Source: Patescibacteria group bacterium (GTDB taxonomy: Bacteria > Patescibacteriota > Minisyncoccia > Phycocordibacterales > CAIZLB01). From it: 64,000 nt of DNA. Below are positions 8,123 through 47,781 of this stretch, piece after piece. The number at the start of each line of letters is the position of its first letter. Position 1 is the first letter of the stretch. The position numbers and the translations under genes are program-made. The DNA is taken from contig JAZKFG010000002.1 of NCBI GenBank assembly GCA_040386515.1, forward strand, positions 79,074 to 143,073, in the 5' to 3' direction. The notes under the pieces are model-generated. The model was given only the letters and a program-made list of their open reading frames with translations. It did no database searches and was not told the origin of the DNA.

Positions 8123-10441
8123 ATGAGCTTAGGTAAAACTTGCGCAATACTCTTATTATTTTTTTGTGTAATTAGTAATATCCATACGCAGGCTGCAGAA
8201 TTTGTTCCAAAAGACATACGTCTTGTTAATCCTGCAACGAGTTTTAAAGCAGGAAGTGTGCAGGATATTGGCTTAGTGCGATCTGATATTAAAGGGCGAG
8301 CAAATCTTATATTCGATTATGGAGTTGCTCGAGTTATTACTGATGAGACTATTACTTCATATGAAATCATAAGCACAGAAACTTCTGCAAATACAAATCA
8401 GATTAAGTTTCCAGTCACTATTCCAAATACTATTCCTGAATATGCCACATCGACATATGTTATTTTTTTGAAATCTTATGCAATTCATCGGCCCGATACA
8501 CAAAACTTTTTTGTCACTAAGCCTTTTGTTATTGAGAGAAATGATTTGCCGTACATACATATTAAAAATATTAATCTTCTGCAAAGCAATAATACTCGTG
8601 CAGGACTTGAAGATGGTCCAATAATATATAACCCTGATTCAGCAGCATCTGAAGCCCAATCTATTAATACTTCTCTAGAAGTCTCATTTCAATCTGATCA
8701 AGAAACAATTTTAAAACCAGTTATTAAGTTTAACAAATTGAGATCAAATGCAAAGCTAGAAGATTTCACGCCTGCAGAAATAAGTGTAAGAAAGGGAATT
8801 ACAAATGTCACAATTCCTTTACCTGTATTTAATTATGAGCCGGGTGTGTATTTTGGGGAATTATTGTTACATAATAATCTACTGCCTGTAAAAGTTGAAT
8901 TTATATACATTATTGCTGGAGAAACAGCTTCTGTGGGATTAGTTACTGCAAGTCCGGAAGGCTTATTTACATTTAATATTTTTGGAACACCTGCCGATAT
9001 ACATAATACTACTGCCACAACTACGAAAGAGATTAAAACGTTTAAAACCACTTTCATGTTTAGGGGCAAGGAAGTATTTGCTACTACATCTGAAAGTATT
9101 GATTTTAATGCTGGGTCAACAACTATAGCGCTTCCTAAAAATGTTCAGAGTGTAGATTCTGTATGGGTTGAAGTAATTTCAAATACAACAAATAAAGTAT
9201 TATTCGCAGACACAAAGGGTATATCATTTTCTCGAGATACAGAGCCGAATCGATGGTATTTATATTACATATTAATACTTTGTATTATTATCGTCTGTGC
9301 CTTTAAGCAACATAAAACAAAATTTATTATAGCTCTACTATTATTATGTGCTCTCATTATTACTCAGAGAGTATACGGTGATATGTATAAGCCAGACGAG
9401 TTTATGACCACAAATAATGAATTTAGTGATCGTGTTTCTTTATATATAAATCAAAATATACAGCCACTTATTCAAACATGTGGAGAGCCTTTCAGTCTTT
9501 TATATGGTGTGTACTATACTGCTGCAGCAAGTGCATTTAACGGCAATACTGCTGGATTTTCTGTCCTAAGTGCAGGAGATGCAGATGCAAAACGTACTGA
9601 GGCAATAAGCGGAGACAAAATGTATGATATTAATAAAAGTCATGATAAGTGGTATCACATTTCTAACTGGTTTAAATATACAAGTCCAACGGTATTAACA
9701 ACTAATAAAACATTATATATAACCGTTGATTCAAACTCAGGAACTGCACGATATAAAATGCCTATTACTATTGGAGAGTGTTATGCCTGTACAAATGCAA
9801 CCAGTACGTCTAACATCCCTAATTTCCAAAAATTTAATAGAAATTATTATTATTCAACAAGTACGCAACAGCTGTATTATAGAAATATAAGCGATGGAGA
9901 TAGGCCATCAGAATGTAAAATAGATTTATGCACAAACACTGAATTTTCAGAAGAACAATATCCGGAAACACTGACGTGGTCACCACTTCCGGCAACTGGC
10001 TCTACTGATCCAGACAGATATGCATGTGTACCTGCAAAAGTTAATTGTGCCTGTGATAAGCGCAATATGGTATGTAAAAATGATACGACAGGGACAAGTA
10101 CTATTACTGTGAATGATACTGCTTGTAAATTCCAAGCTTTCTGTACTGCAACTGAAAACTCAATCAATGGTGGATGGGTAACCTTCGATGCCTATAATAA
10201 ATTGGGAAAAATCTCGTATAGCCAAAAAGGCAAAGGACTTCCACTTGTAACTGAAACCTCAACCACATCTACAAGTACACCCCAAAATGCCGCATTCGAC
10301 CAAAATGGAGGATACATGATGATTCAAATTCCTGTTGGAGGTAAAATTGTAACCAATACATTAACTGATAGTTTTGACGGATCAGTCTCTACAGCATCAT
10401 GTAAATTGATTGGTAACAGCACTACTACACCAGCACTTTAA
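8123..10441 (+). CDS. Large secreted/surface protein. It has a signal peptide, an internal TM segment followed by a basic patch (resembling a sorting-signal tail), and then a Cys-rich C-terminal domain.
   Basis: N-terminal signal peptide MSLGKTCAILLLFFCVISNIHTQA; mid-protein hydrophobic stretch LYYILILCIIIVCAFKQHKTK; C-terminal domain with multiple Cys. Confidence 0.5.
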   Translation: MSLGKTCAILLLFFCVISNIHTQAAEFVPKDIRLVNPATSFKAGSVQDIGLVRSDIKGRANLIFDYGVARVITDETITSYEIISTETSANTNQIKFPVTIPNTIPEYATSTYVIFLKSYAIHRPDTQNFFVTKPFVIERNDLPYIHIKNINLLQSNNTRAGLEDGPIIYNPDSAASEAQSINTSLEVSFQSDQETILKPVIKFNKLRSNAKLEDFTPAEISVRKGITNVTIPLPVFNYEPGVYFGELLLHNNLLPVKVEFIYIIAGETASVGLVTASPEGLFTFNIFGTPADIHNTTATTTKEIKTFKTTFMFRGKEVFATTSESIDFNAGSTTIALPKNVQSVDSVWVEVISNTTNKVLFADTKGISFSRDTEPNRWYLYYILILCIIIVCAFKQHKTKFIIALLLLCALIITQRVYGDMYKPDEFMTTNNEFSDRVSLYINQNIQPLIQTCGEPFSLLYGVYYTAAASAFNGNTAGFSVLSAGDADAKRTEAISGDKMYDINKSHDKWYHISNWFKYTSPTVLTTNKTLYITVDSNSGTARYKMPITIGECYACTNATSTSNIPNFQKFNRNYYYSTSTQQLYYRNISDGDRPSECKIDLCTNTEFSEEQYPETLTWSPLPATGSTDPDRYACVPAKVNCACDKRNMVCKNDTTGTSTITVNDTACKFQAFCTATENSINGGWVTFDAYNKLGKISYSQKGKGLPLVTETSTTSTSTPQNAAFDQNGGYMMIQIPVGGKIVTNTLTDSFDGSVSTASCKLIGNSTTTPAL

Positions 10442-11820: not shown

Positions 11821-12528
11821 ATGGCTCTTGATTTATTTACAAAAGAGGAGATTTGGATGGCAAAAAAGATTGCTAAATACGGTTTTATCCTATTAATTGC
11901 AACAGGTATTATTACCAGTCTAATCCGTGTCACTTTAGTGTATATAACTGATGGTCAAACAGGATTGCAAAACCTCATAAAAAAAGAAGCTAAGACTGAG
12001 CAAACAAATGCTCCTGAACAAAACCTAAAAGATACACTTCTGGTCAAAAAGGAAACTCAGGCACTCCCTACTCAAGTTGTTGCTGGAAAAGTTGAGGCGC
12101 CACTCTCTCTTGAGGTTCCGACTCTCGGCATAAAAACAGTAATTGAATCTCCTGAGACTACGAACGTGGACACTTTAGATAGTGCCCTCAGTAGATCTGC
12201 CGTGTACTATCAAGGTTCAGGAACACCAGGAAGTGGAAATATGCTTATTTTCGGTCACAGCACAGGATTTAAAATTGTACGTAATCAGGCCTATAAAGTA
12301 TTTAATAATCTGAAGCTTGCCAAAGTTGGTGCATACATTTATGTAAAAACTGCCAGCGGAACACATACGTATAAAGTTCGAGGCGTAAAGCATGTAAGTA
12401 AATATGACACATGGATTAATTTCCAAAGTAATACGTCTATGCTTACGCTTGCAACATGTGATAGTTTTGGAAAATCATCAGACCGATGGATTTTGGAGGC
12501 AGATTATGTTGGATTTACGGGGAATTAG
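11821..12528 (+). CDS. Sortase family transpeptidase
   Basis: N-terminal TM segment, conserved His (LIFGHST) and catalytic TLxTC (LTLATCD) followed by a conserved Arg (SSDRW). Confidence 0.7.
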   Translation: MALDLFTKEEIWMAKKIAKYGFILLIATGIITSLIRVTLVYITDGQTGLQNLIKKEAKTEQTNAPEQNLKDTLLVKKETQALPTQVVAGKVEAPLSLEVPTLGIKTVIESPETTNVDTLDSALSRSAVYYQGSGTPGSGNMLIFGHSTGFKIVRNQAYKVFNNLKLAKVGAYIYVKTASGTHTYKVRGVKHVSKYDTWINFQSNTSMLTLATCDSFGKSSDRWILEADYVGFTGN

Positions 12529-12549: not shown

Positions 12550-14670
12550 ATGGCTCTACCAGAAAAGTACAAATCCCCATATGATGCAAGTCTAGTTGAG
12601 GAATCTATATATAAGAAAGAAACTGAATCAGGTTTTTTTACACCTGAAAATCTGGTCAAGGCTTATCCTTCAAGATATGAAAAAAGTGAGGCATGGACTA
12701 CGATTACACCCCCGCCAAACGCAAACGGGCATTTGCATGCAGGTCATGCCCTTGATGTAACGCTCAAAGATGTTATTGGGAGATTTCACCGTATGAATAA
12801 TAAGAGAGTGCTGATGATTCCAGGATCTGATCATGCTGGTTTTGAAACACAGGTAGTATATGAAAAGAAGCTGGAAAAAGAAGGGCGAAGCAGATTTGGT
12901 ATGGATAGAGATCTTTTGTATAAAGAGATTTATGATTTTACTATTGCAAACAAAGATACTGTAGCAGGGGAGGTAAAAAGAATTGGTGCATCATATGACT
13001 GGAGTCGAGATACATTTACCCTTGATGCAAAAGTTGTAACTGGCGTACAGGATACATTTATAAAAATGTATAATGACGGATTGATTTACCGAAGCAAGAG
13101 AGATGTGAACTGGTGTAGTAAGCATCAGACTTCTTTATCTGATTTAGAGACTACAAATAAAGAGATGACTGATACGTTTTATACATTTAAGATTGGTGAA
13201 TTTTTGATTGGTACATCACGACCTGAAACTAAGTTCGGGGATAAATATATTGTCGTACATCCTGAAGATGCTCGATACAGTAAGTATACTCAGGGCGATA
13301 CCTTTGAGGCTGAATGGATTCTTGGTCCAACAAAGTTTACTATCATAAAAGATGAATCAATTGATATGGAATTCGGAACTGGAGCCATGACTATTACTCC
13401 ATGGCACTCTGGAATTGATTTTCAAATTGCTAAAAAATATAATCTTGATATGGTTCAGGTTATTGATGAGAATGGAAAGCTTATGGATATTGCAGGTGAG
13501 CTAAAAGGACTTCGAGCAATCACAGAAGGGCGAAAGCGAACTGTTGAGATTCTTGAACAAAAAGGATTGCTTGTTGAGAAAAATGAAAAATACACGCACG
13601 TAGTGCCTGTATGTTACAAATGTGAAACTCCTATTGAGCCACAGCTTAAAGATCAATGGTTTGTTAAAATGGCTCCACTTGCCGAGAAGGCACTCGAAGC
13701 ATCAACGAAAGGTGAGATCGACTTCGTTACAGACCAGTTCAGAAAAACATATGAGTATTGGATGAGTAATCCTATAGACTGGAATATTTCACGACAAATT
13801 GTATGGGGTATTCGAATTCCGGCATGGTTTAAAAACAAGGGAACTGACACTGAAGAATATTATATCGGTCATGATAATCCAGGAGGAGAGTGGATTCAAG
13901 ATATTGATACATTTGATACATGGTTTTCATCTGGTCAGTGGCCAGTAGCTACGCTTGGTTTTGTTGGTGCTGATGATTTTAAAACATATTATCCAACACA
14001 GCTTATGGAGACAGGTCGGGATTTGATTTTTAAATGGGTACCACGAATGGTTATTTTCGGATTATATCTAACTGACTATAAACAAGTTCCATTTAAAGAT
14101 ATTTATCTTCACGGCATGGTATTGGATCCAAAAGGACAAAAAATGAGTAAATCAAAGGGTAATGTGATGAGTCCTATTGAACTTGCAGATGAGTTTGGAA
14201 TGGACGCACTCAGAATGGCTCTTGTTGTAGGTACTACTCCTGGCAGTGATCAGTCTATGTCTAAAGATAAAGTTAGAGCGTATAAGAAGTTTGTAAATAA
14301 GCTTTGGAATATTTCTCGATTTGTTTTGGAGAATACAGATAATGAAAATGAATGGGATAAGTCAATAATAGATAATGAATATATTAACAAACTGGAAAAT
14401 GTAAAAATGAATATTGGATTATATATTGAAAAATATCAATTACATCTTGCTTCTGAAGAACTATACCACTACGTATGGCATGAGTTTGCAGATGTTGTGA
14501 TCGAAGATGTTAAGAAAGATTTGACTGATGCAAACAAAGCAATGCTTCGATATATGCTCAAAGAAATTCTGACAATGGCGCATCCGTTTATGCCATTTGT
14601 AACAGAAGAGATTTGGAGCGATGTGAGAAATGATGGGGAGGTAGAGCTTCTTCTTGTTAAAGAATGGTAG
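12550..14670 (+). CDS. valS: Valine--tRNA ligase (short form without the C-terminal coiled coil)
   Basis: PPPNANGHLHAGHAL (HIGH), KMSKSKGNV (KMSKS) and WNISRQIVWGIRIPAW (the WCISRQ motif of ValRS). Confidence 0.75.
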   Translation: MALPEKYKSPYDASLVEESIYKKETESGFFTPENLVKAYPSRYEKSEAWTTITPPPNANGHLHAGHALDVTLKDVIGRFHRMNNKRVLMIPGSDHAGFETQVVYEKKLEKEGRSRFGMDRDLLYKEIYDFTIANKDTVAGEVKRIGASYDWSRDTFTLDAKVVTGVQDTFIKMYNDGLIYRSKRDVNWCSKHQTSLSDLETTNKEMTDTFYTFKIGEFLIGTSRPETKFGDKYIVVHPEDARYSKYTQGDTFEAEWILGPTKFTIIKDESIDMEFGTGAMTITPWHSGIDFQIAKKYNLDMVQVIDENGKLMDIAGELKGLRAITEGRKRTVEILEQKGLLVEKNEKYTHVVPVCYKCETPIEPQLKDQWFVKMAPLAEKALEASTKGEIDFVTDQFRKTYEYWMSNPIDWNISRQIVWGIRIPAWFKNKGTDTEEYYIGHDNPGGEWIQDIDTFDTWFSSGQWPVATLGFVGADDFKTYYPTQLMETGRDLIFKWVPRMVIFGLYLTDYKQVPFKDIYLHGMVLDPKGQKMSKSKGNVMSPIELADEFGMDALRMALVVGTTPGSDQSMSKDKVRAYKKFVNKLWNISRFVLENTDNENEWDKSIIDNEYINKLENVKMNIGLYIEKYQLHLASEELYHYVWHEFADVVIEDVKKDLTDANKAMLRYMLKEILTMAHPFMPFVTEEIWSDVRNDGEVELLLVKEW

Positions 14671-14696: not shown

Positions 14697-15458
14697 ATGA
14701 ACAAAATAGTTGCTTTTGATCTCGACGGGACGCTCGCTGAAAGTAAACAAGCCATAACACACGAAGTGGCAACTATTCTTTATTCTCTATCACTCAAGAC
14801 AAAAGTTATTATTATCTCAGGCGGATCGTATGAACAATTCACAAAACAATTTGTTCCAGGAATAGTAAACGCTGCAAAAGTAAAAGGCAACACTCGAGGA
14901 CTTGAAAACGTTATTCTCATGCCAACAAATGGAAGCAAAAGATACGAGTATGATGTTGATATGCATATGTGGAAAGAAACACAAATGTATCCATTTAATG
15001 AAGAAATTAAAAAGAAAGTAATGCTTGAATTGAATTCAATTATTGCTGGAAATTTTGATGTACCCCGAAATCACTATGGAGAGTATATTGAAGATAGAGT
15101 GACGCAGATTACATTCTCAGCTCTAGGACAAACCGCACCACTTGAAGAAAAAAGTATATGGGACCCAACTCGATCAAAGAGATTGAAAATAAAAGAAGTT
15201 CTTGAGAAAGCAATTCCTGAAATACAAGCACATGTTGGAGGTATGACTTCTATTGATATTCTTCCAAAAAATTTTAACAAAGCTACAGGACTTCTTAGAT
15301 ATTTATCAGAAGAAAAATTATCAATACACGATATGCTATTTATTGGTGATGCAATTTTCGAAGGAGGGAATGATTACTCACCGCTTCAAGCCGGAATAGA
15401 AACTAAAAAAACATCAGGTCCAAAAGAAACAGTGGAGATCATGCAAACATTGCTTTAA
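14697..15458 (+). CDS. HAD-IIB hydrolase, eukaryote-type phosphomannomutase (PMM) family
   Basis: VAFDLDGTL HAD motif I; C-terminal FIGDAIFEGGNDYSP resembles the PMM motif F/GDKT..GGNDYEI. Confidence 0.6.
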   Translation: MNKIVAFDLDGTLAESKQAITHEVATILYSLSLKTKVIIISGGSYEQFTKQFVPGIVNAAKVKGNTRGLENVILMPTNGSKRYEYDVDMHMWKETQMYPFNEEIKKKVMLELNSIIAGNFDVPRNHYGEYIEDRVTQITFSALGQTAPLEEKSIWDPTRSKRLKIKEVLEKAIPEIQAHVGGMTSIDILPKNFNKATGLLRYLSEEKLSIHDMLFIGDAIFEGGNDYSPLQAGIETKKTSGPKETVEIMQTLL

Positions 15459-15487
15459 GTCGAATAATAAAGGTAAAATGAATACTA

Positions 15488-15847
15488 ATGACAGACATAC
15501 GGAAAGACATATACCAAGAAAGTCGACCATGGGGTAATTTCCGTCGATTTACTCTTAATAGTCCATCAACAGTTAAAATAATTGAAGTTTTGCCAGGGCA
15601 AAGTTTAAGTCTTCAAACTCACACAGCTCGAGGTGAATTTTGGCGTATACTTTCTGGAACTGGAACTGTCGAAATAGATGAAAAGCCAATACGTGCAAAA
15701 AAGGGCGATGAATTTTTTATTGAAACAGGAATGAAGCATAGAGCATTTACAGAAACTGATACATTGGAAATATTAGAAATCGCAGTAGGAGAGTTTGATG
15801 AAAATGACATAACTCGCTTTGAAGATAAATACGGAAGGACTAAGTAA
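15488..15847 (+). CDS. Cupin-family mannose-6-phosphate isomerase-like protein (COG0662 type)
   Basis: RPWGNF...SLQTHTARGEFWRILSGTGTVEI matches the cupin PMI/GMP C-terminal domain signature. Confidence 0.65.
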   Translation: MTDIRKDIYQESRPWGNFRRFTLNSPSTVKIIEVLPGQSLSLQTHTARGEFWRILSGTGTVEIDEKPIRAKKGDEFFIETGMKHRAFTETDTLEILEIAVGEFDENDITRFEDKYGRTK

Positions 15848-15861
15848 CATTTACACAAATC

Positions 15862-16968
15862 ATGTTTCAATTATCAAGAGTAGGGAATAAACCAGTATTA
15901 CAGCCTGATAAAAATATCTTTTGGGAAACAGAAGGTGTTTTTAATGCAGGTGTAACTGAGTTTGAGGGAAAGAATGGAAAAGAAATACTCATGCTCTATA
16001 GAGCAGTTGGGGAAAAGGATGCGTATGTATCACATTTTGGATTGGCCACAAGTAAAGATGGTATTACATTTGAAAGAGTAACAGATAAGCCAGTATTCGG
16101 TCCTTCAAAGCCGTATGACTTATGGGCAACTGAAGATCCTCGTATTACAAAAATAGAAGATGAATATTATATTACGTATGTTGCAGTGGCAGATAGAATT
16201 ATGGATCATGGTCGAAGTATTGAAAGAGAAATTCCTCTTGAAACTCGTACAGCCCTTTTGAAAACAAAAGACTTTTTAACATATGAACATTTAGGAATTA
16301 TTACACCTCCAGGTGCTGATGATAAGGATACTGTGTTATTTCCAAAAAAAATTCCATGCATTGATCCATCTGGAAATATGCGTATGCGATATGGAATGCT
16401 TCATCGACCGCATCGATGGTCAAAAGATTGGCTACATGGACCTTTTGCTGCTAAAGTTCCTATTGAACTTCCTTTTACAATTGATGATATGCCGCAAAAG
16501 CCAAGTGTATGGATTGCGTGGTCTGATGATTTAATTCATTGGGATATGCACACGCCTCTCATGAAGCCGGCACAAGTGAGTGCTGCTAAAAACGGTCCAG
16601 GTCTGCCACCAATTGAAACACCAGATGGATGGCTGGTTATTTATCATCATGTGACTGAAGATCCTTTAACAAAACGCCTTACCTATACTGCTCGAGCAGC
16701 ACTGTTTGAGCTTGAAAATCCTACAAAATATGTAGGAAAATTGGCATATAATATATTATCCCCTGAGGTATCCTTTGAAACGGAGCATGGAGCAGCTATT
16801 GTTTTCCCGACTGGAGGATTTGTAAAAGATGATATACTATATGTATATTATGGCTGCTCTGATACATATATAGCCTTGGCAACAGGGTCATTATCAGAGC
16901 TTATTGCAGAATTAAAAAAAGCTGGTCCTCCGGCTCCTGTAACAACTATTGCCCCTATTATCCGCTAA
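15862..16968 (+). CDS. Glycoside hydrolase family 130-like protein (beta-mannoside phosphorylase family)
   Basis: FNAGV..LYRAVGE..GLATSKDGITFERV..EDPRITKIEDEYYITY pattern typical of GH130. Confidence 0.6.
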   Translation: MFQLSRVGNKPVLQPDKNIFWETEGVFNAGVTEFEGKNGKEILMLYRAVGEKDAYVSHFGLATSKDGITFERVTDKPVFGPSKPYDLWATEDPRITKIEDEYYITYVAVADRIMDHGRSIEREIPLETRTALLKTKDFLTYEHLGIITPPGADDKDTVLFPKKIPCIDPSGNMRMRYGMLHRPHRWSKDWLHGPFAAKVPIELPFTIDDMPQKPSVWIAWSDDLIHWDMHTPLMKPAQVSAAKNGPGLPPIETPDGWLVIYHHVTEDPLTKRLTYTARAALFELENPTKYVGKLAYNILSPEVSFETEHGAAIVFPTGGFVKDDILYVYYGCSDTYIALATGSLSELIAELKKAGPPAPVTTIAPIIR

Positions 16969-16982
16969 TCAATACATCACAC

Positions 16983-19277
16983 ATGCCGCCACACCAACAA
17001 AAAACTAAAAATGATGCAATGTGGATTGTCTTCATGACAACTTTTCCACCTCGAGAATGTGGACTTGCAACATTTACAGCAGACTTGATAGATAGTTTTG
17101 ATAAGCTATTTTCTCCTCAAGAGGAAACTAAGGTTATTGCTATGGAGACTGAGTCTTCGGAAAATGCAGTAACTGGCGTTCCTGTTACAGACCCAAAAGT
17201 TATTTTTAGGATTTCTGAAAATAAAAAAGAAGATTATGTTGCTGCTGCGACGTATGTAAATAACTTGCCCCAAGTGAAAGTTGTCTCAATTCAACACGAG
17301 TTTGGCATTTACGGACAAAATGACGGAGAAAATGTTTTAGTTTTTTTAGAGGAAGTTAAAAAGCCGGTTGCAGTTACATTTCATACTGTGCTTCCTCGAC
17401 CATCGGAACATATTTTGCATATTGTGCAAGAGATTGGGAAAAAAGCAGAGCATATGATTGTTATGACTCAAAATTCTAAACTACTTCTTGAGACAGTCTA
17501 TGCAATTCCTTCAGAAAAAATTAAAGTTATTGCGCATGGTATTCATGCGTTGCCATACACTGAGTCACCAAGCATAAAGAAAATGCTGGACGCCAAGAAA
17601 ATGCCAAAGCTCGGAGAGCTTTCTGGAAAAAAAGTTATTTCTACATTTGGATTATTAAACAGAGGAAAGGGAATTGAGTTTGCAATCGATGCTTTGCCTG
17701 CAATCGTGAAAGAATTTCCTGAAACTCAATATCTTATTCTTGGAGCAACGCATCCAGTAGTATTTCGAAGAGAAGGGTCGGTATATTTAAATCAACTAAG
17801 ACAAAAAGCAGAAGCGCTCGGTGTACTTGAACATATTACATTTTACGATTCATATATAGAAACAAAGGATTTGCTGACATTTTTACAAGCGACTGATATA
17901 TATCTTTCACTTTCACAAAATCCTGATCAAGCAGTGTCAGGAACACTTACATATGCCCTTGGAGCAGGGAGAACAGTTGTATCAACGCCTTTTATGCAGG
18001 CTAAAGAAGTGATCACAGATGAGGTTGGTAGGCTTATTGAATTTAATGATAGCTCTACAATTGCCGATGCTGTAATTACGTTATTTAAAGATCAGAACGA
18101 TTTGAAAAATAAAAGTAAGGCGGCTTATTTTAGAACGAGAGGAATGGTTTGGCCAAATATTGCTCTTTCGTATATGCAAGAATTTATATCAGTATCGCCT
18201 GAACTTGCACTCAAAGAAAAAGCTTTGCCTCCATTAGACTTTTCGCACATTAAACATATGACGGATGATTTTGCCATGTTTCAGTTTGCAGTTTTTACTG
18301 AGCCTTCACCTGAGTCAGGATATACGCTTGATGACAATGCGAGGTCTCTTGTATGCATGGTCTGGGCAACTGATGAGCTTGGGAAACATGAAAGTGAAGT
18401 AAAATTGGCGGATACATATTTATCATTCCTAGAAACAGCTTCGCTTCCTGGAGGATTTGTAAATTATTATGACGTTGATCGAATAGAAAATCATGCAAAA
18501 AATTCTACAGAAAATCTTGAAGATTCAAATGCGCGAGCGCTTTGGGCAATTGCTGAAGTGTATGCAAGTTCAATAGGGGATGCAATAGAGGTACGGGCAT
18601 TCAATCTGTTCATGCATCAATTTGCGCATCATACTCGGGTGACATCACCGCGTGCTGCTGCATTCTATATCAAGGCTTTTTCTGTTTGGCTCTCTAAAGG
18701 GAAAGCAACTGAAGATGTGAAAGCACTTTTGATAGGACACATGACATATTATGCAGATTTTCTTATGTCTATTCTGCATGATAATGAGACATCAGATTGG
18801 ATTTGGTTTGAAAGTGCTATGACATATTCAAATGCAATTTTGCCTGAAGCGCTTTTCTTGGCATATACATGGACAAAATACGAACATTATCTCGCAGCTG
18901 CTAAACGAACTATGGATTTCTTAATACTACATTCATTCGACAATGATATGTGTGTGCCCATAGGACAAGCTGGATGGTTCAAGAGAGGTGGTGTAAAGCA
19001 ACCTTTTGATCAACAGCCGGAAGAAGTATCCGCACTCGTTCTCGGGCTGTACACTGCCTTTACCGTTTCAAAAGATGAAAAATATCAGACGTATATGAAC
19101 AGTGCCTTTGACTGGTTCCTTGGAAAGAATATTATTGGCCAAGTTATATATTCTCATGCTACGGGAGGGTGTTATGATGGGCTTGGAAATACCTATATAA
19201 ACCTTAATCAAGGGGCAGAATCAACCGTTTCATATCTTTTGGCTCGTCTTATAATGGAAAAATCGAAAAAAATATAA
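16983..19277 (+). CDS. Bifunctional-looking protein: an N-terminal GT4 glycosyltransferase (about 400 aa) fused to a C-terminal domain of unknown function (about 350 aa), possibly an alpha/alpha-toroid glycosidase-like fold
   Basis: GT4 hallmarks are present (the FPPRECGLATF start and an E-x7-E-like region around ALGAGRTVVSTPF). The C-terminal half has no recognisable motif. Confidence 0.5.
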   Translation: MPPHQQKTKNDAMWIVFMTTFPPRECGLATFTADLIDSFDKLFSPQEETKVIAMETESSENAVTGVPVTDPKVIFRISENKKEDYVAAATYVNNLPQVKVVSIQHEFGIYGQNDGENVLVFLEEVKKPVAVTFHTVLPRPSEHILHIVQEIGKKAEHMIVMTQNSKLLLETVYAIPSEKIKVIAHGIHALPYTESPSIKKMLDAKKMPKLGELSGKKVISTFGLLNRGKGIEFAIDALPAIVKEFPETQYLILGATHPVVFRREGSVYLNQLRQKAEALGVLEHITFYDSYIETKDLLTFLQATDIYLSLSQNPDQAVSGTLTYALGAGRTVVSTPFMQAKEVITDEVGRLIEFNDSSTIADAVITLFKDQNDLKNKSKAAYFRTRGMVWPNIALSYMQEFISVSPELALKEKALPPLDFSHIKHMTDDFAMFQFAVFTEPSPESGYTLDDNARSLVCMVWATDELGKHESEVKLADTYLSFLETASLPGGFVNYYDVDRIENHAKNSTENLEDSNARALWAIAEVYASSIGDAIEVRAFNLFMHQFAHHTRVTSPRAAAFYIKAFSVWLSKGKATEDVKALLIGHMTYYADFLMSILHDNETSDWIWFESAMTYSNAILPEALFLAYTWTKYEHYLAAAKRTMDFLILHSFDNDMCVPIGQAGWFKRGGVKQPFDQQPEEVSALVLGLYTAFTVSKDEKYQTYMNSAFDWFLGKNIIGQVIYSHATGGCYDGLGNTYINLNQGAESTVSYLLARLIMEKSKKI

Positions 19278-19296: not shown

Positions 19297-20772
19297 ATGC
19301 TCCAATCAACCGCCCTCGACATACTCAAAACCGGCGCATCAGTTTTCCTTACCGGAGAACCTGGTTCAGGAAAAAGTTATACCATACGTCAGTATGTGGA
19401 TTTTTTGGCTGCAAATCATGTGTATGCATCGGTTACTGCTAGTACAGGTATTGCTGCTACGCATATTGGAGGAATGACTATTCACTCATGGGGAGGTATT
19501 GGCATTAAAGAATCTTTAAGTGTGTATGACATTGAAGCGCTTCATGAAAAGGAATATATTGTGAAGCGAATGCTTAAAGCTAAGGTTTTAATTATTGATG
19601 AGATTTCAATGTTGAGTGGAAATACATTTGATATGATTAATGCAGTTTGTAAAAGCGTTCGGCAAGTGCCTGACAAGCCATTCGGAGGATTGCAGGTAAT
19701 ATGTGTAGGAGACTTTTTTCAGCTTCCGCCTATTATTAAAAAAAATACAAACAGCCTTGAGCTCTTTGAAGATAATGGTTTTGTATTTTCTAGTTCTGCC
19801 TGGAGAGAGCTTAAACCATTGACATGCTACTTGACAGAACAGCATAGACAAAGCGATGCAGAGTTTATGAAAGCGCTTGCACAAATAAGAAACAATACCG
19901 TTGATGAAGAAACGCATAGTATTTTGCGCACCAGAGTTGTACGAGAGAAAACTGATTTGCCTGATGCTACAAAATTATATTCACACAACTCGCATGTTGA
20001 TACGGTAAATACACGAGAGATTGGCAAGCTTGATGGTAAAATAAAGATCTATGAAATGACTACTAAAGGGAAGGACACAATGACTGCAACACTTATTAAA
20101 AGCTGTTTGTCACCTGAAAAGCTTGAACTTAAAATCGGAGCTAAAGTTATGTTTACTAAAAACAATCCTGATAAAGGTTTTGTAAATGGTACGACAGGAA
20201 CTATTGTTGAATTCCATTTTGATATGCCGCGAGTTAAAGTGGCAAATGGCATGACTATAGATGTTGAGCCAATGGATTGGAGTATTATGGATCAAGGAAG
20301 GGTGTTGGCATCAATTACTCAAATTCCACTTCGGCTGGCATGGGCAATTACTATTCACAAAAGCCAAGGCATGAGTTTGGACGCGGCTATTATGGATCTT
20401 TCACAAGTGTTTGAATATGGGCAAGGTTATGTTGCGCTTTCACGTGTTCGGACACTGCAGGGATTGCATGTCATAGGATATAACGATAGAGCTCTTGAAG
20501 TTCACCCGCGAGTACAGGAAGAAGATCAGCTATTTAAAGAACAATCACAGGAAGCTGAGTTACGCATTTTCCAAATGGATAAAGGGGAGCTTAAAAGAAT
20601 TCAAGAAAGATATATTGGCTCTATTGCCGGAGCTCCTAAAAAAGAAGAAAAAGAGCCTAAGAAAACATCAGGATTCAAGGCTCGGGGTGGATGGAAAACT
20701 AAAAAGAAAAAGGAGGTAAATCTTGATGATGTGTATAAAGTTGAATATGAAGGGGATGGAGATGTTTGGTAA
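19297..20772 (+). CDS. RecD/PIF1-like superfamily 1 DNA helicase with a Lys-rich C-terminal tail
   Basis: Walker A LTGEPGSGKSY, Walker B VLIIDEISM, and the QLPPI and AITIHKSQGMSLD motifs of RecD/TraA/PIF1 helicases. Confidence 0.7.
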   Translation: MLQSTALDILKTGASVFLTGEPGSGKSYTIRQYVDFLAANHVYASVTASTGIAATHIGGMTIHSWGGIGIKESLSVYDIEALHEKEYIVKRMLKAKVLIIDEISMLSGNTFDMINAVCKSVRQVPDKPFGGLQVICVGDFFQLPPIIKKNTNSLELFEDNGFVFSSSAWRELKPLTCYLTEQHRQSDAEFMKALAQIRNNTVDEETHSILRTRVVREKTDLPDATKLYSHNSHVDTVNTREIGKLDGKIKIYEMTTKGKDTMTATLIKSCLSPEKLELKIGAKVMFTKNNPDKGFVNGTTGTIVEFHFDMPRVKVANGMTIDVEPMDWSIMDQGRVLASITQIPLRLAWAITIHKSQGMSLDAAIMDLSQVFEYGQGYVALSRVRTLQGLHVIGYNDRALEVHPRVQEEDQLFKEQSQEAELRIFQMDKGELKRIQERYIGSIAGAPKKEEKEPKKTSGFKARGGWKTKKKKEVNLDDVYKVEYEGDGDVW

Positions 20773-23392: not shown

Positions 23393-24976
23393 TTACTGAC
23401 ATTTAGTATCTGTTGGCAATCGCAAAGAAGTTTGTGTAAGCATACTTCCATTACTGTCAGAACAATAGTAATTTCCAGAAGTAGAAGACTTTGCACTAAC
23501 CATCCAAGATTTTCCCGTACTATTACATACAACGCCTGATACATTTGGAGTTAAATCAGATATAAGTGTACTTAATCCACCACTTGTTTTGTCAGTAAAT
23601 ATTCCTGCACTACATGATTGTGTTACTGCTCCGTAGCCATTGTTATTTGCATAAAACAATTCAGCCTGAGCTCTCATGTTTGAAAGGGTGGCTTGCACCG
23701 CAGCGTCTTGTCCTTTTGATCGAACTTCTGCATTGGCTTTTTCTGACGTTACTACATTACATAGGTCAGCATATCCTACAAACATATCAGCACACGTTAT
23801 AACATTTAAAGGAGTAAGTAATGAGATCGAGTTCGTATTTGGAATTATGCTAAATTTAAATGTATCAGTAGCTTTTGTTCCTACAACAGATGGAGTTTTT
23901 GATCGTATTGATTGTATTAATCCATTTTTAACTAGTACGGTAAAAAGAATCTTTTGATTACCATTAACTGCATTTGCTGCAGCATCAGCGCCAGCATACA
24001 TATTTCCATAAAGTCTCGAATTAAATATCATACTTGCTCCCATTGCAATATCGTAGGGTATTGATACTTCGAATGTTTGACTACCATCTGTACCTAGACT
24101 AATTGATCGAGCAGTAAAGTCTGATTTATATATTGCATCAAGCGTAAAATCAATTTTCTTAGTGTTTATTCCTTCGTATGCATTTAAATAATTTAATGTA
24201 TCTGGAATTGCTACATAATTATTTCTAACTTTATTGATTGTTGTCTGATTGAGTAATACCTCTCCGTCTTTTAAATACTTGAGCATTGAATCATTTACAA
24301 GCTTGTATGTAGTATTGCCTTTGGCAATTGTTTTTGCTGAAAATAAACCTCCTGCTCCTGACACACTTGAAGTGTAATCAACCTCATAGGTTGGACCAGA
24401 TTTTGGCATAAGATTAAATGTACCATCAGTAGTATATGTATTTGTCACGTCTGCAACCTTGGCAACTTTTGAACATTCCATAACTCCTTTCTTTGGAGCT
24501 GCTCCAACTACCAATGAATTTCCTGTACTATCTACGCAATGATATGATGCCGCATTTAATTTTGCAGATACTATAAATGTGTTTTTTGTTGATGCACATG
24601 TGACTACGGTTGAGTATTTCTTAGTGGCAGAAATCAATTTTCCAAGCCCTGTTGTTGTATCTGCAAACATTCCGGCAGTACAAGATTGTGTTGTTATTCC
24701 GTAACTATTGCTGTTGCTGTAGTATAGCTCAGCCTGTGCGCGCATATTTGAAAGACTTGACTGAATATTTACAGTTGTCATGTTAAAAACTGAAGCAGCA
24801 GTAGAAGGTCCGATTATTTTAATATCATGATGAGCTGTTAAAACTATGCTTGAGTTATTTGCTCGTGCATTTTCTATTGTTGCTTTTGCAGCATCGATAA
24901 GTATTTGTTCATTTGTTGCAGCGCTTGTGTTAATTGATAATGTAAGGAGTAAAAGTGCACATGTTATTTTTTTCAT
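23393..24976 (-). CDS. Secreted protein with two tandem pilin-like globular domains (internal duplication)
   Basis: Signal peptide MKKITCALLLLTLS (ATG at 24976; the ORF track extends to a GTG at 25009). The repeats are LSNMRAQAELYYSNSNSYG..TQSCTAG and LSNMRAQAELFYANNNGYG..TQSCSAG, each ending in Y(H/Y)C.DS.G. Confidence 0.5.
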   Translation of the reverse strand: MKKITCALLLLTLSINTSAATNEQILIDAAKATIENARANNSSIVLTAHHDIKIIGPSTAASVFNMTTVNIQSSLSNMRAQAELYYSNSNSYGITTQSCTAGMFADTTTGLGKLISATKKYSTVVTCASTKNTFIVSAKLNAASYHCVDSTGNSLVVGAAPKKGVMECSKVAKVADVTNTYTTDGTFNLMPKSGPTYEVDYTSSVSGAGGLFSAKTIAKGNTTYKLVNDSMLKYLKDGEVLLNQTTINKVRNNYVAIPDTLNYLNAYEGINTKKIDFTLDAIYKSDFTARSISLGTDGSQTFEVSIPYDIAMGASMIFNSRLYGNMYAGADAAANAVNGNQKILFTVLVKNGLIQSIRSKTPSVVGTKATDTFKFSIIPNTNSISLLTPLNVITCADMFVGYADLCNVVTSEKANAEVRSKGQDAAVQATLSNMRAQAELFYANNNGYGAVTQSCSAGIFTDKTSGGLSTLISDLTPNVSGVVCNSTGKSWMVSAKSSTSGNYYCSDSNGSMLTQTSLRLPTDTKCQ

Positions 24977-25008
24977 ATGTACTTCATAATAGCATGAATT
25001 AAAAAACA

Positions 25009-25046
25009 CCTTGCGCAGTGACCTCTTGGAAGAGGTGTGCGCAAGG
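25009..25046 (-). terminator. Nested inverted repeat (CCTTGCGCA..CCTCTT/AAGAGG..TGCGCAAGG) followed on the minus strand by a T-run. Putative intrinsic terminator of the GC-rich gene and left boundary of the GC island.
   Basis: Seen directly: the 9-bp arms are perfect reverse complements and the inner 6-bp arms as well; TGTTTTTTAATT follows on the minus strand. Confidence 0.5.
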
Positions 25047-25838: not shown

Positions 25839-26615
25839 TTATTTCATCAAACTACTCTCCATTGCATATAAATCATGCACACCTGAGGCTGTTAAATCCT
25901 TTCCAAAAATACGAACATTATCAATATATCCAGTATATCCCCATTCATCAGCTGACCCTCCTGAAACAGTCTTTTTCATACCAATTATTAATGGCTGTGT
26001 TGATGTAATGGGTGCAGTGCCGCCTGTTCCTGATGAAAAAATCTTACCATCAAGATATGTTTTACTTACTGTCCCGTCAAATACTCGAGCAACATGATGC
26101 CAAACTCCAACTGTTGGAGTGAAGGATCCTGTAAATGTTATCCCATACGAAACGTCGTAGGCAACATCCTGACTTTTATTAATTGCAACATTGTATGTCT
26201 TATCCCATGCCTCTGATTTAAACCAAAATGAAATCGAATACTTACTTCCTAAGTCTAAGAAGTTTGAATCAGGAACTCGTACATAATCATTTACACCATC
26301 AAATCGTATAGAATATCCTGTCCCGTCTGGAGTATCAGTTGACCAACCGTATGGAGAGGCAATATTTGTTAGTGTTCCCGTATTGTTATTACCTGATAAA
26401 TCTCTGGTTGTTAATCCTGTTCCTTCATTAAAATCCCACATTGCTAAAGCTTGATCTCCTGCAACATGATACATGTTTGCTTCAAATTGCAATCCAGCCG
26501 CAACTCGACTTTTTTCTCTGGCTGCACTTAAAGACACTAAAGCTATACTAGCCAAAAGACTAATTATTGAAATAACTACAAGGAGTTCTATAAGTGTAAA
26601 TCCTTTCCGACGCAT
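25839..26615 (-). CDS. Type IV pilin-like protein with a C-terminal LamG/concanavalin-like lectin domain
   Basis: Prepilin leader MRRKG|FTLIELLVVISIISLL (G-F cleavage site with Glu at +5); LamG_3-like blocks WHHVARVFDG..TYLDGK and GYIDNVRIF. Confidence 0.7.
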   Translation of the reverse strand: MRRKGFTLIELLVVISIISLLASIALVSLSAAREKSRVAAGLQFEANMYHVAGDQALAMWDFNEGTGLTTRDLSGNNNTGTLTNIASPYGWSTDTPDGTGYSIRFDGVNDYVRVPDSNFLDLGSKYSISFWFKSEAWDKTYNVAINKSQDVAYDVSYGITFTGSFTPTVGVWHHVARVFDGTVSKTYLDGKIFSSGTGGTAPITSTQPLIIGMKKTVSGGSADEWGYTGYIDNVRIFGKDLTASGVHDLYAMESSLMK

Positions 26616-47779: not shown

Positions 47780-47781
47780 TA

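What the first reader, a model, noticed from the sequence alone, without database searches (positions are those of the whole stretch)
14697..19277. Phosphorolytic mannoside module: eukaryote-type PMM, cupin PMI, GH130 phosphorylase and a GT4-fusion protein
Four co-oriented genes. GH130-family enzymes phosphorolyse beta-mannosides to mannose-1-phosphate (established for the family). The HAD protein carries the eukaryotic PMM signature (GGNDY) rather than the bacterial PGM/PMM type. The 119-aa cupin matches COG0662 mannose-6-P isomerase. Together they would convert mannosides to Fru-6-P without spending ATP on phosphorylation, which is attractive for an energy-limited fermenter. The downstream 764-aa GT4 fused to an unknown 350-aa domain could synthesise or remodel a mannosyl compound.
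Basis: partly seen in the sequence, partly recalled or inferred. Interest (0 to 1): 0.6.

Follow-up and report, generated by a model that had tools for sequence, protein, structure and literature searches.

The report
Mannose-phosphate module with GH130–glycosyltransferase pair
Four adjacent genes in a tiny uncultured (Patescibacteria) bacterium link mannose-phosphate metabolism to a beta-1,2-type mannoside phosphorylase. That phosphorylase is paired, and in some organisms fused, with an unusual two-domain glycosyltransferase across many bacteria and archaea, which suggests the cell builds and recycles its own mannoside rather than simply eating plant mannan.

Summary
Four tightly packed, co-oriented genes encode a PMM-family HAD mutase, a 119-aa cupin of the type II PMI family, a GH130 protein, and a 764-aa GT4-like protein fused to a predicted (alpha/alpha)6 barrel.

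- **GH130:** it keeps the proton donor, the phosphate-binding Arg/His, and the Glu/Lys pair that marks beta-1,2 specificity. Its nearest solved relatives are beta-1,2-mannoside phosphorylases, not beta-1,4 enzymes.
- **HAD protein:** its closest solved relative is a bacterial alpha-phosphoglucomutase that also carries GGNDY. That motif therefore does not show mannose specificity or a eukaryotic origin.
- **GT4 fusion:** it is the core partner of the GH130, not an accessory gene. Relatives were confirmed in 595 stretches of species-representative genomes (CPR, DPANN, Asgard, Bacteroidota). In 43 of 73 informative loci a GH130 gene lies immediately upstream, and single-chain GH130–GT4–barrel fusions exist. 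Split versions sit next to GH130 or GH94 phosphorylases.
- **Four-gene block:** it recurs with different flanks in relatives 51–72% identical.

No transporter or secreted mannanase accompanies the module. I favour reversible turnover of an endogenous beta-1,2-mannoside fed from Fru-6-P through Man-1-P. Substrate and direction are untested. This is a new variant of a known kind, of moderate to high interest.

The parts
14697..15458 (+). HAD-IIB hexose-phosphate mutase of the PMM family (253 aa), of the bacterial APGM-like type. It carries DxDGT (AFDLDGTL) and GGNDY motifs. It probably interconverts Man-6-P and Man-1-P, and perhaps also or instead Glc-6-P and Glc-1-P.
   Evidence: Pfam PMM 43.7 bits and Hydrolase_3 40.5 bits. 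TIGR01484 HAD-IIB 66.5 bits. Best solved relative is Lactococcus alpha-phosphoglucomutase 4bnd (E 3.4e-30, 108.7 bits), against at most 50.7 bits for phosphomannomutases. Present in the block in L081, L082, L085, L004 and L001.
15488..15847 (+). Stand-alone 119-aa cupin of the type II mannose-6-phosphate isomerase family. Inferred reaction: Fru-6-P <-> Man-6-P.
   Evidence: PF01050 70.2 bits, covering profile positions 13-116 of 116. It matches only the C-terminal 360-467 region of the bifunctional GMP/PMI model TIGR01479. No close solved structure. Found directly upstream of GH130-GT4f in L081, L082, L084, L085, L086, L003 and L004.
15862..16968 (+). GH130 beta-mannoside phosphorylase (368 aa) of beta-1,2 type. 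Key residues: proton donor D92, +1 subsite R47/E91/K155/D334, phosphate-binding R182 and H262.
   Evidence: PF04041 136.3 bits. Best NCBIfam model is beta-1,2-mannobiose phosphorylase, 189 bits, below the 450 cut-off. Best PDB matches are 9fj8 (1,2-beta-oligomannan phosphorylase, E 3e-44) and 7fip (E 1e-42). Key residues are conserved in 43-44 of the 44 aligned GT4f-adjacent GH130 sequences, window protein included. Criteria are from PMC7660257.
16408..16494 (+). About 27-29 residue insertion in GH130 (roughly residues 183-211) directly after the phosphate-binding HRP motif, that is, in loop L2. It is specific to the window-type GH130 clade.
   Evidence: The alignment of 44 partner GH130s shows it only in WIN, L001, L002, L003 (the fused protein) and L004. 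There is a gap against 9fj8/7fip between query residues 164 and 213. Loop L2 is reported to decide whether GDP-mannose can be accommodated (PMC12814180).
16983..18194 (+). GT-B, GT4-like glycosyltransferase domain (residues 1-404) with an atypical active-site signature. It has a conserved N-terminal PPRxCG motif and keeps K229. The canonical EX7E glutamates are replaced (P314 with flanking N/D, and Y324).
   Evidence: PF00534 60.7 bits and PF13692 54 bits. AF2 model pLDDT 90.6. Foldseek matches HepE, MshA, GlgM, SPS, PimB' and BshA with TMt 0.76-0.83 at 14-18% identity. In the alignment to MshA, E316 corresponds to P314 and E324 to Y324. Y324 is present in 77/81 and Q316/S319/G320/T321/K229 in 81/81 homologues.
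18195..19277 (+). C-terminal (alpha/alpha)6 six-hairpin barrel domain (residues 405-764). It belongs to an uncharacterised family related to Yersinia YPO2471. Signature: GYTxDDNAR ... RALW ... WxWFE ... YxN ... DG ... NxNQGAES. Candidate catalytic residues are D450/D451, D732 and E746.
   Evidence: AF2 pLDDT 94.7, pTM 0.93. Foldseek PDB best match is 7tem (E 2e-14, TMq 0.77), then AGE-family epimerases/isomerases and GH9. Profile against 7tem gives E 4.5e-17. 3032 cluster representatives at E<=1e-3, both fused and free-standing. No Pfam family of its own; weak scattered hits to C5-epim_C, GH88, GH127 and GH76.

Best explanation
This is a cytoplasmic mannose-phosphate module built around a conserved enzyme pair.

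Shown by sequence: a GH130 with all residues expected of a beta-1,2-mannoside phosphorylase, and next to it a GT4-like glycosyltransferase fused to a six-hairpin barrel. This second protein is its regular genomic partner and in some organisms its fusion partner.

Inferred:
- The cupin (PMI) and the HAD mutase connect Fru-6-P <-> Man-6-P <-> alpha-Man-1-P.
- The GH130 reversibly transfers mannose between Man-1-P and the non-reducing end of an acceptor (Man-1-P + acceptor <-> beta-1,2-mannoside + Pi).
- The GT4-barrel protein makes, primes or trims the glycoside on which the GH130 works.

The net function I favour is build-up and phosphorolytic mobilisation of an endogenous beta-1,2-mannosylated oligosaccharide or glycoside, acting as a reserve or solute. 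Mannose would enter and leave glycolysis without ATP or nucleotide-sugar cost for the beta-mannosyl steps. I do not favour scavenging of plant beta-1,4-mannan. The identity of the acceptor, the donor of the GT4 domain, the chemistry of the barrel domain and the net direction in vivo are all unknown.
For: - GH130 family and beta-1,2 type. D92, E91/K155, R182/H262, R47 and D334 are conserved in 43-44 of the 44 aligned partner GH130s, window protein included, using the published criteria.
- Partner relationship: relatives of the GT4-barrel protein were confirmed in 595 stretches of species-representative genomes. A GH130 lies immediately upstream on the same strand in 43 of 73 loci with enough upstream DNA, and somewhere in 58 of 80 loci.
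- Fusions: GH130-GT4-barrel proteins of 1086-1091 aa have the same domain order as the window genes.
- Shared contigs: 52 of the 120 best GT4f homologues share a contig length with the best GH130 homologues.
- Split versions: GT4 plus barrel genes lie next to GH130 (L090). In L088 they lie next to a GH94 phosphorylase, a phosphohexomutase and a sugar-1-P nucleotidyltransferase.
- PMI and mutase link: the four-gene or three-gene block is kept at 50-72% identity, with different flanks in L082, L084, L085 and L086. A PGI/PMI gene sits in the Liptonbacteria version.
- Cytoplasmic and endogenous: no 19-residue window with hydropathy above 1.4 in any of the four proteins. No sugar transporter, SusC/D or secreted mannanase among the recurrent neighbour clusters or the Bacteroidota neighbours that were annotated.
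- Precedents: Thermoanaerobacter beta-1,2 GH130s sit with ManC and a GT4. Beta-1,2 GH130s synthesise oligomannan from Man-1-P and weakly from GDP-Man. Leishmania mannogen is cycled by related GT108 enzymes.
Against: - No enzyme here has been assayed.
- Linkage specificity rests on a two-residue rule derived from characterised GH130s. The window protein scores only 189 bits against a 450-bit cut-off for the beta-1,2-mannobiose phosphorylase model, and its 27-aa L2 insertion has unknown effect.
- The HAD protein is closest to a glucose-phosphate mutase. It accompanies the pair only in a subset of relatives: 10 of the 120 best GT4f contigs.
- The stand-alone cupin has never, to my knowledge, been shown to have PMI activity.
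- A retaining GT4 cannot itself make beta-mannosides, so its role is conjecture. Its missing EX7E glutamates could even mean altered or lost transferase chemistry.
- Absence of transporters is negative evidence taken from flanks of 10 kb or less.
- In other lineages the pair travels with PIG-L deacetylase, a second GT4, a GDE_C-like protein and NagB. That points to a GlcN(Ac)-containing compound, which this model does not explain.
Confidence: 0.5

Rival explanations
1. Catabolic salvage, which is the first reader's reading extended by the Thermoanaerobacter model. Imported beta-mannosides, perhaps host- or fungus-derived beta-1,2-oligomannan, are phosphorolysed by GH130. Man-1-P then goes through the HAD mutase and the cupin to Fru-6-P for fermentation. 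Part of it is diverted, after activation, to the GT4 protein for glycoconjugate synthesis.
For: This is established logic for GH130 pathways and it saves ATP. The Thermoanaerobacter cluster combines beta-1,2 GH130s with ManC and a GT4. L088 has a sugar-1-P nucleotidyltransferase between the phosphorylase and the GT4. PMI and the mutase are in the block. CPR genomes were noted to carry intracellular GH130s.
Against: No transporter, binding protein, SusC/D or secreted glycanase accompanies the module in the window, in the recurrent neighbour clusters of the 80 loci, or in the annotated Bacteroidota neighbours. The Thermoanaerobacter cluster does have them. No NDP-sugar pyrophosphorylase was found among the window ORFs I annotated. 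Physical fusion of a degradative phosphorylase to a transferase is not explained by this reading.
Confidence: 0.28
2. Envelope or protein glycan assembly. The GT4 domain adds an alpha-linked sugar to a lipid- or protein-linked acceptor. The GH130 works in the synthetic direction as a nucleotide-independent (Man-1-P) or GDP-Man-dependent beta-mannosyltransferase. The barrel domain trims or transfers the product.
For: Beta-1,2 GH130s have weak GDP-Man transferase activity. In other lineages the neighbours include PIG-L deacetylase and a second GT4, a pairing that recalls GlcNAc-glycoside and GPI-type first steps. The window genome invests heavily in surface glycan genes.
Against: None of the four proteins has a membrane segment or signal sequence. 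The module lies 27 kb from the Wzx/Wzy cluster. No polyprenyl-phosphate transferase or flippase is a recurrent neighbour. The authors of the GT-activity study themselves doubt its physiological relevance.
Confidence: 0.12
3. The GT4-like domain is not a nucleotide-sugar transferase. It would be a retaining sugar-1-phosphate-dependent enzyme (a phosphorylase, like GT4 trehalose phosphorylase). The whole module would then run on hexose-1-phosphates supplied by the HAD mutase, which may handle Glc-1-P as well as Man-1-P.
For: Both EX7E glutamates are replaced, including the second one (in canonical GT4 enzymes it contacts the nucleotide ribose, from my own knowledge). The phosphate-binding Lys229 is invariant. 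No pyrophosphorylase is in the window block. The HAD protein is nearest to an alpha-phosphoglucomutase. GT4 is a family known to contain phosphorylases.
Against: L088 places a sugar-1-P nucleotidyltransferase directly upstream of the split GT4, which suggests an NDP-sugar donor. R227 is not conserved across the family. I did not check whether characterised GT4 phosphorylases lack EX7E.
Confidence: 0.1

Closest known systems
Thermoanaerobacter sp. X-514 beta-1,2-mannoside phosphorylases Teth514_1788/1789 (GH130_6) and their gene cluster (PMC4264767; structures 9FJ8, 7FIP)
   Same: Closest solved relatives of the window GH130 (E 3e-44 and 1e-42). Same catalytic Asp, phosphate-binding Arg/His and beta-1,2 Glu/Lys pair. 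No signal peptide. The genes neighbour a GT4 glycosyltransferase and mannose-phosphate enzymes.
   Different: The window enzyme has a 27-aa insertion in loop L2 and fails the equivalog cut-off (189 bits against 450). Its GT4 partner carries an extra six-hairpin domain and lacks EX7E. The Thermoanaerobacter cluster has an ABC sugar transporter, a GH5 and ManC, none of which is present here. It has no PMM or PMI.
Leishmania mannogen cycle (GT108 dual mannosyltransferase/phosphorylases)
   Same: Five-bladed propeller enzymes related to GH130. They build and phosphorolyse an intracellular beta-1,2-mannan reserve using Man-1-P or GDP-Man. Turnover is cytoplasmic and linked to hexose-phosphate metabolism.
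   Different: A different CAZy family (GT108, not GH130) in a eukaryotic parasite. No GT4-barrel partner is known there. No mannan has been demonstrated in any carrier of the present module.
Bacteroides/Ruminococcus beta-1,4-mannan pathway (cellobiose 2-epimerase + GH130 mannosylglucose phosphorylase + PMM + PMI)
   Same: GH130 phosphorolysis feeding Man-1-P -> Man-6-P -> Fru-6-P. An (alpha/alpha)6 AGE-fold enzyme works alongside the GH130.
   Different: Those GH130s carry the Tyr/Arg beta-1,4 signature, whereas this one has Glu/Lys. The barrel domain here resembles epimerases only in fold (11-14% identity), and only one His is conserved in it (H422, at its N-terminal edge). Those pathways sit with transporters and mannanases.
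Cyclic beta-1,2-glucan synthase Cgs (GT84 + (alpha/alpha)6 cyclase + GH94 phosphorylase in one protein); from my own knowledge, not tested here
   Same: It combines a glycosyltransferase, a six-hairpin barrel and an inverting beta-1,2-glycan phosphorylase in one polypeptide to make and size a cytoplasmically synthesised beta-1,2-glycan. A split GT4 plus barrel pair next to a GH94 was seen in L088.
   Different: None of the three domains belongs to the same family. GT84 is inverting and GT4 is retaining. Cgs is a large membrane protein. This is an analogy of architecture only.
Lactococcus lactis alpha-phosphoglucomutase PgmH/APGM (PDB 4BND)
   Same: Closest solved relative of the HAD protein (108.7 bits, full length). 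Both share the DxDGT and GGNDY motifs.
   Different: APGM is described as a glucose-phosphate mutase. The window gene sits between no glucose enzymes but next to a PMI-type cupin and a mannoside phosphorylase. Specificity is untested.

Membership tests
GH130 (beta-mannoside phosphorylases/hydrolases) | Sequence membership: Pfam PF04041 above the gathering score | tested here: met
   136.3 bits against a cut-off of 26, covering residues 24-349. 18 GH130 structures matched at E<=1e-3.
GH130 (beta-mannoside phosphorylases/hydrolases) | Phosphorylase rather than hydrolase: proton-donor Asp plus the phosphate-binding Arg/His pair, and no signal peptide | tested here: met
   D92 in EDPR, R182 in HRP and H262 in IYH. 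All three are present in 44/44 aligned partner GH130s, window protein included, using the criteria of PMC7660257. No hydrophobic N-terminus. Absence of a catalytic base was not checked directly.
GH130 beta-1,2-specific phosphorylases (GH130_4/_6-like) | Glu/Lys pair at the +1 subsite (Tyr/Arg marks beta-1,4; Glu/Arg marks beta-1,3) | tested here: met
   E91 and K155, both in 44/44 partners. Nearest structures are beta-1,2 enzymes.
Beta-1,2-mannobiose phosphorylase equivalog (NCBIfam NF052550) | Score above the curated equivalog cut-off | tested here: not met
   189.3 bits against a cut-off of 450. The match is split in two by the insertion. CAZy subfamily assignment (dbCAN-sub) was not available.
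GH130 enzymatic activity | Reversible phosphorolysis of a beta-mannoside to alpha-Man-1-P | not testable with these tools
   Needs an enzyme assay.
Eukaryote-type phosphomannomutase family (HAD-IIB, PF03332) | Family membership and HAD catalytic motifs (DxDGT, GGNDY) | tested here: met
   PF03332 43.7 bits against 22.4. TIGR01484 66.5 bits against 41.8. AFDLDGTL and EGGNDY are read directly from the sequence.
Eukaryote-type phosphomannomutase family (HAD-IIB, PF03332) | Closer to true PMMs than to other members; mannose specificity | tested here: not met
   Alpha-phosphoglucomutase 4bnd scores 108.7 bits, against at most 50.7 for PMMs. GGNDY is shared with 4bnd. Substrate preference itself is not testable here.
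Type II mannose-6-phosphate isomerase cupin (PF01050) | Family membership over the full domain | tested here: met
   70.2 bits against 23.6, profile positions 13-116 of 116.
Bifunctional GMP/PMI (TIGR01479) | Nucleotidyltransferase domain plus PMI domain; score above cut-off | tested here: not met
   70 bits against 373. Only model positions 360-467 match. The protein is 119 aa long.
GT4 retaining glycosyltransferases | GT-B fold and Glycos_transf_1 membership | tested here: met
   PF00534 60.7 bits against 26.4. Model pLDDT 90.6. Foldseek TMt 0.76-0.83 to HepE, MshA, PimB' and BshA.
GT4 retaining glycosyltransferases | Canonical EX7E motif in the C-terminal Rossmann domain | tested here: not met
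   In profile alignments to MshA and 5i45 the first Glu aligns with P314 and the second with Y324. Y324 is present in 77/81 homologues, and position 314 is Pro in 62/81.
AGE superfamily (N-acylglucosamine / cellobiose 2-epimerases, mannose isomerase) | (alpha/alpha)6 fold plus sequence family PF07221 and the catalytic His pair | tested here: inconclusive
   The fold matches (E 5.6e-9 to 1e-7, TMq 0.63-0.72, 11-14% identity). The window domain has no PF07221 hit, and only 4 of 44 relatives have a weak one. The only conserved His is H422, at the domain's N-terminal edge. I could not map residues structurally.
YPO2471-like six-hairpin family (uncharacterised) | Homology detectable by sequence profile and by fold | tested here: met
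   Profile E 4.5e-17 over 307 positions, with shared DDxAR, RALWAL, DG and NxNxGAEST motifs. Foldseek E 2e-14. The function of that family is unknown, and no paper was found.

The most novel reading that the evidence does not exclude
GH130 + GT4 + six-hairpin barrel is a widespread, so far undescribed three-component machine, sometimes a single polypeptide. It would make, size and phosphorolytically recycle an intracellular beta-1,2-mannoside or oligomannan, a prokaryotic counterpart of Leishmania mannogen. In architecture it would parallel cyclic beta-1,2-glucan synthase. In small-genome CPR bacteria and DPANN/Asgard archaea it would serve as a nucleotide-free carbohydrate buffer fed directly from Fru-6-P. 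This would give the synthetic activity of bacterial beta-1,2 GH130 enzymes a physiological role.
Probability: 0.3. Interest if true: 0.8.

Novelty: new variant of a known kind. Interest (0 to 1): 0.6.

Why it matters
GH130 enzymes are treated almost entirely as catabolic enzymes for plant, fungal and host mannosides. The most recent structural study of the beta-1,2 enzymes leaves open whether their synthetic activity has any physiological meaning (PMC12814180).

This window shows a beta-1,2-type GH130 that is systematically adjacent to, and sometimes fused with, a dedicated transferase-plus-barrel protein. The pairing appears in CPR bacteria, DPANN, Asgard and Altiarchaeota archaea, Bacteroidota and others, without uptake genes. 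That makes the question directly testable, because cultivable carriers exist (Arcicella rigui; several Flavobacterium).

It also defines three things:
- a large uncharacterised six-hairpin family (about 3000 50%-identity clusters);
- an atypical GT4 lineage lacking EX7E;
- in ultra-small genomes, a possible ATP- and nucleotide-free carbohydrate store or solute pathway, which bears on how these energy-limited episymbionts manage carbon.

If instead the ordinary catabolic reading holds, the finding is a modest extension of known GH130 pathways.

Tried and rejected
- **Empty locus search.** The single-sequence locus search with the C-terminal domain found nothing. The alignment-based search worked.
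- **Window proteins not on record.** Exact-sequence contig look-ups of the window's own GT4 protein found no record, so the neighbourhood was studied through homologues.
- **Cgs lead rejected.** A 2809-aa ORF upstream of the pair in L013 was checked as a possible cyclic-glucan-synthase-like protein. It has only HAD and B12-binding domains and may be an ORF-calling artefact.
- **Unrelated Flavobacterium neighbours.** The large neighbours in Flavobacterium loci are glutamine synthetase III, OmpA-like proteins and similar.
- **No operon signals.** The promoter and terminator scans gave chance-level counts and say nothing about operon structure.
- **Literature gaps.** Searches for YPO2471 and for the substrate range of Lactococcus alpha-phosphoglucomutase returned nothing usable. 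My statement that APGM is a glucose-phosphate mutase rests on the PDB name and my own recollection.
- **Truncated 'free-standing' barrel.** The 360-aa 'free-standing' barrel protein P0248 begins 3 bases from a contig end, so it may be cut off. Only L088 and L090 are accepted as true split versions.
- **Other GH folds rejected.** GH43/GH32 assignment of the GH130 protein was considered and rejected (16.7 bits, below cut-off).
- **Chance clustering rejected.** Chance co-orientation was rejected on the comparative evidence.

Full report
**What is in the sequence.** Window 14697-19277 holds four ORFs on the + strand, at exactly the coordinates given: 253, 119, 368 and 764 aa, separated by 29, 14 and 14 nt. 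They lie in a longer same-strand run: sortase 11821-12528, ValRS 12550-14670, the four genes, then a Pif1-type helicase 19297-20772. G+C is about 35-39% throughout. The identical proteins are recorded from a 292-kb contig of a Patescibacteria (CPR) MAG. Promoter-like and terminator-like matches are at chance level, so co-orientation alone proves nothing in such a genome.

**Family assignments.** Pfam places the four proteins in PMM/Hydrolase_3, MannoseP_isomer/Cupin_2, Glyco_hydro_130 and Glycos_transf_1, each above its curated cut-off. The GH32N hit of the third protein is sub-threshold. The HAD protein is HAD-IIB (TIGR01484), not a beta-phosphoglucomutase type. None of the four has a hydrophobic stretch suggesting a membrane segment or signal peptide.

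**The GH130.**
- Its best solved relatives are 1,2-beta-oligomannan phosphorylase Teth514_1788 (9FJ8, E 3e-44) and beta-1,2-mannobiose phosphorylase Teth514_1789 (7FIP, E 1e-42). Beta-1,4 enzymes come far behind at E 1e-11 to 1e-25.
- Its best NCBIfam model is also beta-1,2-mannobiose phosphorylase, though below the equivalog cut-off (189 bits against 450).
- Li et al. 2020 give sequence criteria for GH130: a proton-donor Asp, an Arg/His pair for phosphate, and a +1-subsite pair that is Tyr/Arg for beta-1,4, Glu/Arg for beta-1,3 and Glu/Lys for beta-1,2.
- The window protein has D92 (EDPR), R182 (HRP), H262 (IYH), E91 and K155, plus R47 and D334. By these criteria it is a beta-1,2-type phosphorylase.
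- It differs from the solved enzymes by an insertion of about 27 residues directly after R182. This is loop L2, which Ladevèze et al. 2025 identify as deciding whether GDP-mannose can enter the site. I could not model the consequence.

**The HAD protein.** It has the DxDGT and GGNDY motifs. [quoted passage not shown] Phosphomannomutases reach at most 50.7 bits. More than 4000 homologues were found; the few of the 120 best that carry an organism name are from Patescibacteria and Paceibacterota, variously auto-named HAD-IIB hydrolase or phosphomannomutase. The protein therefore belongs to the PMM family in the wide sense. The motif does not establish mannose specificity or a eukaryotic origin. 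Its position next to a PMI-type cupin and a mannoside phosphorylase argues for Man-1-P <-> Man-6-P. That is inference.

**The cupin.** It matches PF01050 over the whole profile. It matches only the C-terminal PMI part of the bifunctional GMP/PMI model, and it has no nucleotidyltransferase domain. It has no close solved relative.

**The 764-aa protein.**
- AlphaFold2 with a 67-sequence alignment gives a confident two-domain model (pLDDT 90.6, pTM 0.87). The C-terminal 360 residues modelled alone reach pLDDT 94.7.
- The N-terminal half is a GT-B fold resembling many GT4 enzymes equally (HepE, MshA, GlgM, SPS, PimB', BshA; 14-18% identity).
- It is atypical. In profile alignments to MshA and to 5I45, the two glutamates of the EX7E motif align with P314 and Y324. 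Across 81 homologues from many phyla Y324 is present in 77, Q316/S319/G320/T321 in all, and the phosphate-binding K229 in all.
- The C-terminal half is an (alpha/alpha)6 barrel. Its best structural and profile match is the uncharacterised exported protein YPO2471 of Yersinia pestis (Foldseek E 2e-14; profile E 4.5e-17, with shared DDxAR, RALWAL, DG and NxNxGAEST motifs). AGE-family epimerases/isomerases and GH9 follow at 10-14% identity.
- It has no Pfam family of its own. Relatives give scattered weak hits to C5-epim_C, GH88, GH127, GH76 and, rarely, GlcNAc_2-epim.
- Conserved polar residues are Asp, Glu, Arg, Asn and Trp (D450, D451, R454, R518, R557, E610, D732, E746). The only conserved His (H422) is at the domain edge. 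This looks more like glycoside hydrolase or transglycosylase chemistry than His/His epimerase chemistry, but I could not map residues on structures.
- The domain family has about 3000 50%-identity clusters at E<=1e-3, both fused and free-standing.

**Comparative genomics: the central result.**
- An alignment-based scan of one genome per species confirmed relatives of the 764-aa protein in 595 stretches (more exist). They occur in Patescibacteria, Woese-, Pace- and Nanoarchaeota, Promethearchaeota (Asgard), Altiarchaeota, Omnitrophota, Ignavibacteria and Bacteroidota, including cultured Arcicella rigui and Flavobacterium species.
- In the 80 loci kept, a GH130 gene lies immediately upstream on the same strand in 43 of the 73 with enough upstream DNA. 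One is present somewhere in 58 of 80.
- Proteins of 1086-1091 aa fuse GH130, GT4 and barrel in the order of the window genes. The fused GH130 in L003 is of the window type and carries the L2 insertion.
- All 44 aligned partner GH130s, window protein included, keep the phosphorylase residues and the beta-1,2 pair. They fall into two structural types: the window type, and a majority type with a 40-residue helical insertion before K155.
- Where GT4 and barrel are separate genes they overlap and again sit near a GH130 (L090). In L088 they sit behind a phosphohexomutase, a GH94 phosphorylase and a sugar-1-P nucleotidyltransferase.
- The recurring theme is an inverting beta-glycoside phosphorylase together with the GT4 and the barrel.

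**The PMI and mutase genes.** The full block HAD-cupin-GH130-GT4f is found in L081 (GT4 protein 72% identical, syntenic), L082/L083 (68%, entirely different flanks), L085 (53%, different flanks) and L004 (51%). The trio cupin-GH130-GT4f is found in L084, L086 and the fusion locus L003. HAD-GH130-GT4f is found in L001. In a Liptonbacteria locus a bifunctional PGI/PMI-type gene takes the place of the cupin.

**Other lineages.** Elsewhere the pair is accompanied by a GDE_C/GH100-like protein, a canonical 380-aa GT4, a PIG-L-family deacetylase and a NagB-like gene. None of these is in the window, and my model does not explain them.

**Direction and substrate.** Nothing here shows direction. Three points argue against simple scavenging of external mannan:
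- the physical fusion of the phosphorylase to a transferase;
- the absence of any sugar transporter, binding protein or secreted glycanase among recurrent neighbours;
- the absence of SusC/D around the pair in Bacteroidota, where catabolic glycan genes normally sit in such loci (the last clause is from my own knowledge).

No NDP-sugar pyrophosphorylase was found among the window ORFs I annotated, although most of the genome is unseen.

Precedents exist for both readings. Thermoanaerobacter beta-1,2 GH130s lie with ManC, a GT4, a transporter and a GH5, and were proposed to salvage Man-1-P. Beta-1,2 GH130s readily synthesise oligomannan from Man-1-P and weakly from GDP-Man. Leishmania uses related GT108 enzymes to cycle a beta-1,2-mannan reserve.

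I therefore favour, at about even odds, reversible turnover of an endogenous beta-1,2-mannoside fed through PMI and the mutase. Catabolic salvage is the main rival. Envelope glycan synthesis and a sugar-1-phosphate-dependent GT4 are lesser alternatives.

**Novelty.** The four families and the phosphorolytic route to Fru-6-P are known. As of 2018 the only multi-modular GH130 combinations listed in CAZy were GH130-GT81 and GH130-GH130. The searchable library holds no description of a GH130-GT4-barrel association in CPR or DPANN genomes. One CPR genome paper merely notes intracellular GH130s. I rate this a new variant of a known kind. The conserved three-component architecture, the EX7E-less GT4 lineage and the unassigned six-hairpin family are the new elements.

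Noticed in passing
window 1165-3648 (+), between 401-1138 and 3695-5734: An 827-aa protein with a GT2 glycosyltransferase domain (residues about 405-705) is wedged between the genes for the alpha and beta subunits of phenylalanyl-tRNA synthetase, which are usually adjacent.
   Followed up: no
window 46170-58100, both strands: A Wzx/Wzy-type surface glycan cluster: GT2, two GT25, two GT-D-fold transferases, two FkbM-type methyltransferases, two GT32-like DXD proteins, a Polysacc_synt flippase and a 750-aa Wzy_C protein. It is separate from the mannoside module, and no nucleotide-sugar synthesis gene was seen in it.
   Followed up: partly
window 25839-26615 (-), 39798-40646 (+), 37257-39770 (+): Two type IV pilin-like proteins (N-terminal methylation motif) carry Laminin_G_3 lectin-like domains. 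An 837-aa protein has an endosialidase-chaperone (Peptidase_S74) domain, which is more usual in phage tail fibres.
   Followed up: no
window 8123-10441 (+), 23393-25009 (-), 58176-59420 (+): Large ORFs (772, 538 and 414 aa) have no Pfam match at E<=1e-5. The 538-aa protein has internally repeated Cys-containing segments near both ends (sequence).
   Followed up: no
L053 4142-8072; also L031, L034, L042, L054, L052, L049, L071, L064: In other CPR and DPANN lineages the GH130-GT4f pair is extended by a GDE_C/GH100-like protein, a canonical 380-aa GT4, a PIG-L-family deacetylase, and a NagB-like or PGI/PMI gene. This hints at a GlcN(Ac)-containing glycoside.
   Followed up: partly
L088 1-7104: Split GT4 (417 aa) and barrel (367 aa) genes are preceded by an alpha-D-phosphohexomutase, an 821-aa GH94 phosphorylase and a GMPPB-like sugar-1-P nucleotidyltransferase. 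The GT4-barrel unit can therefore pair with a phosphorylase of a different family.
   Followed up: partly
L016 7244-8191; also L019, L024, L027, L044, L047: In six loci that lack an adjacent GH130, a conserved protein of about 315 aa with no Pfam match lies directly downstream of the GT4-barrel gene. It might be a very divergent propeller replacing GH130. Not tested.
   Followed up: no
window 44388-46166 (+): A 592-aa protein has weak similarity to type IV secretion coupling proteins (TrwB/VirD4-like), in a genome region otherwise made of housekeeping and glycan genes.
   Followed up: no
window 19297-20772 (+): A Pif1-family helicase with a Lys-rich C-terminal tail lies directly downstream of the module. 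It is syntenic in the closest relative L081 but not in L082, L084, L085 or L086, so it is not part of the module.
   Followed up: yes
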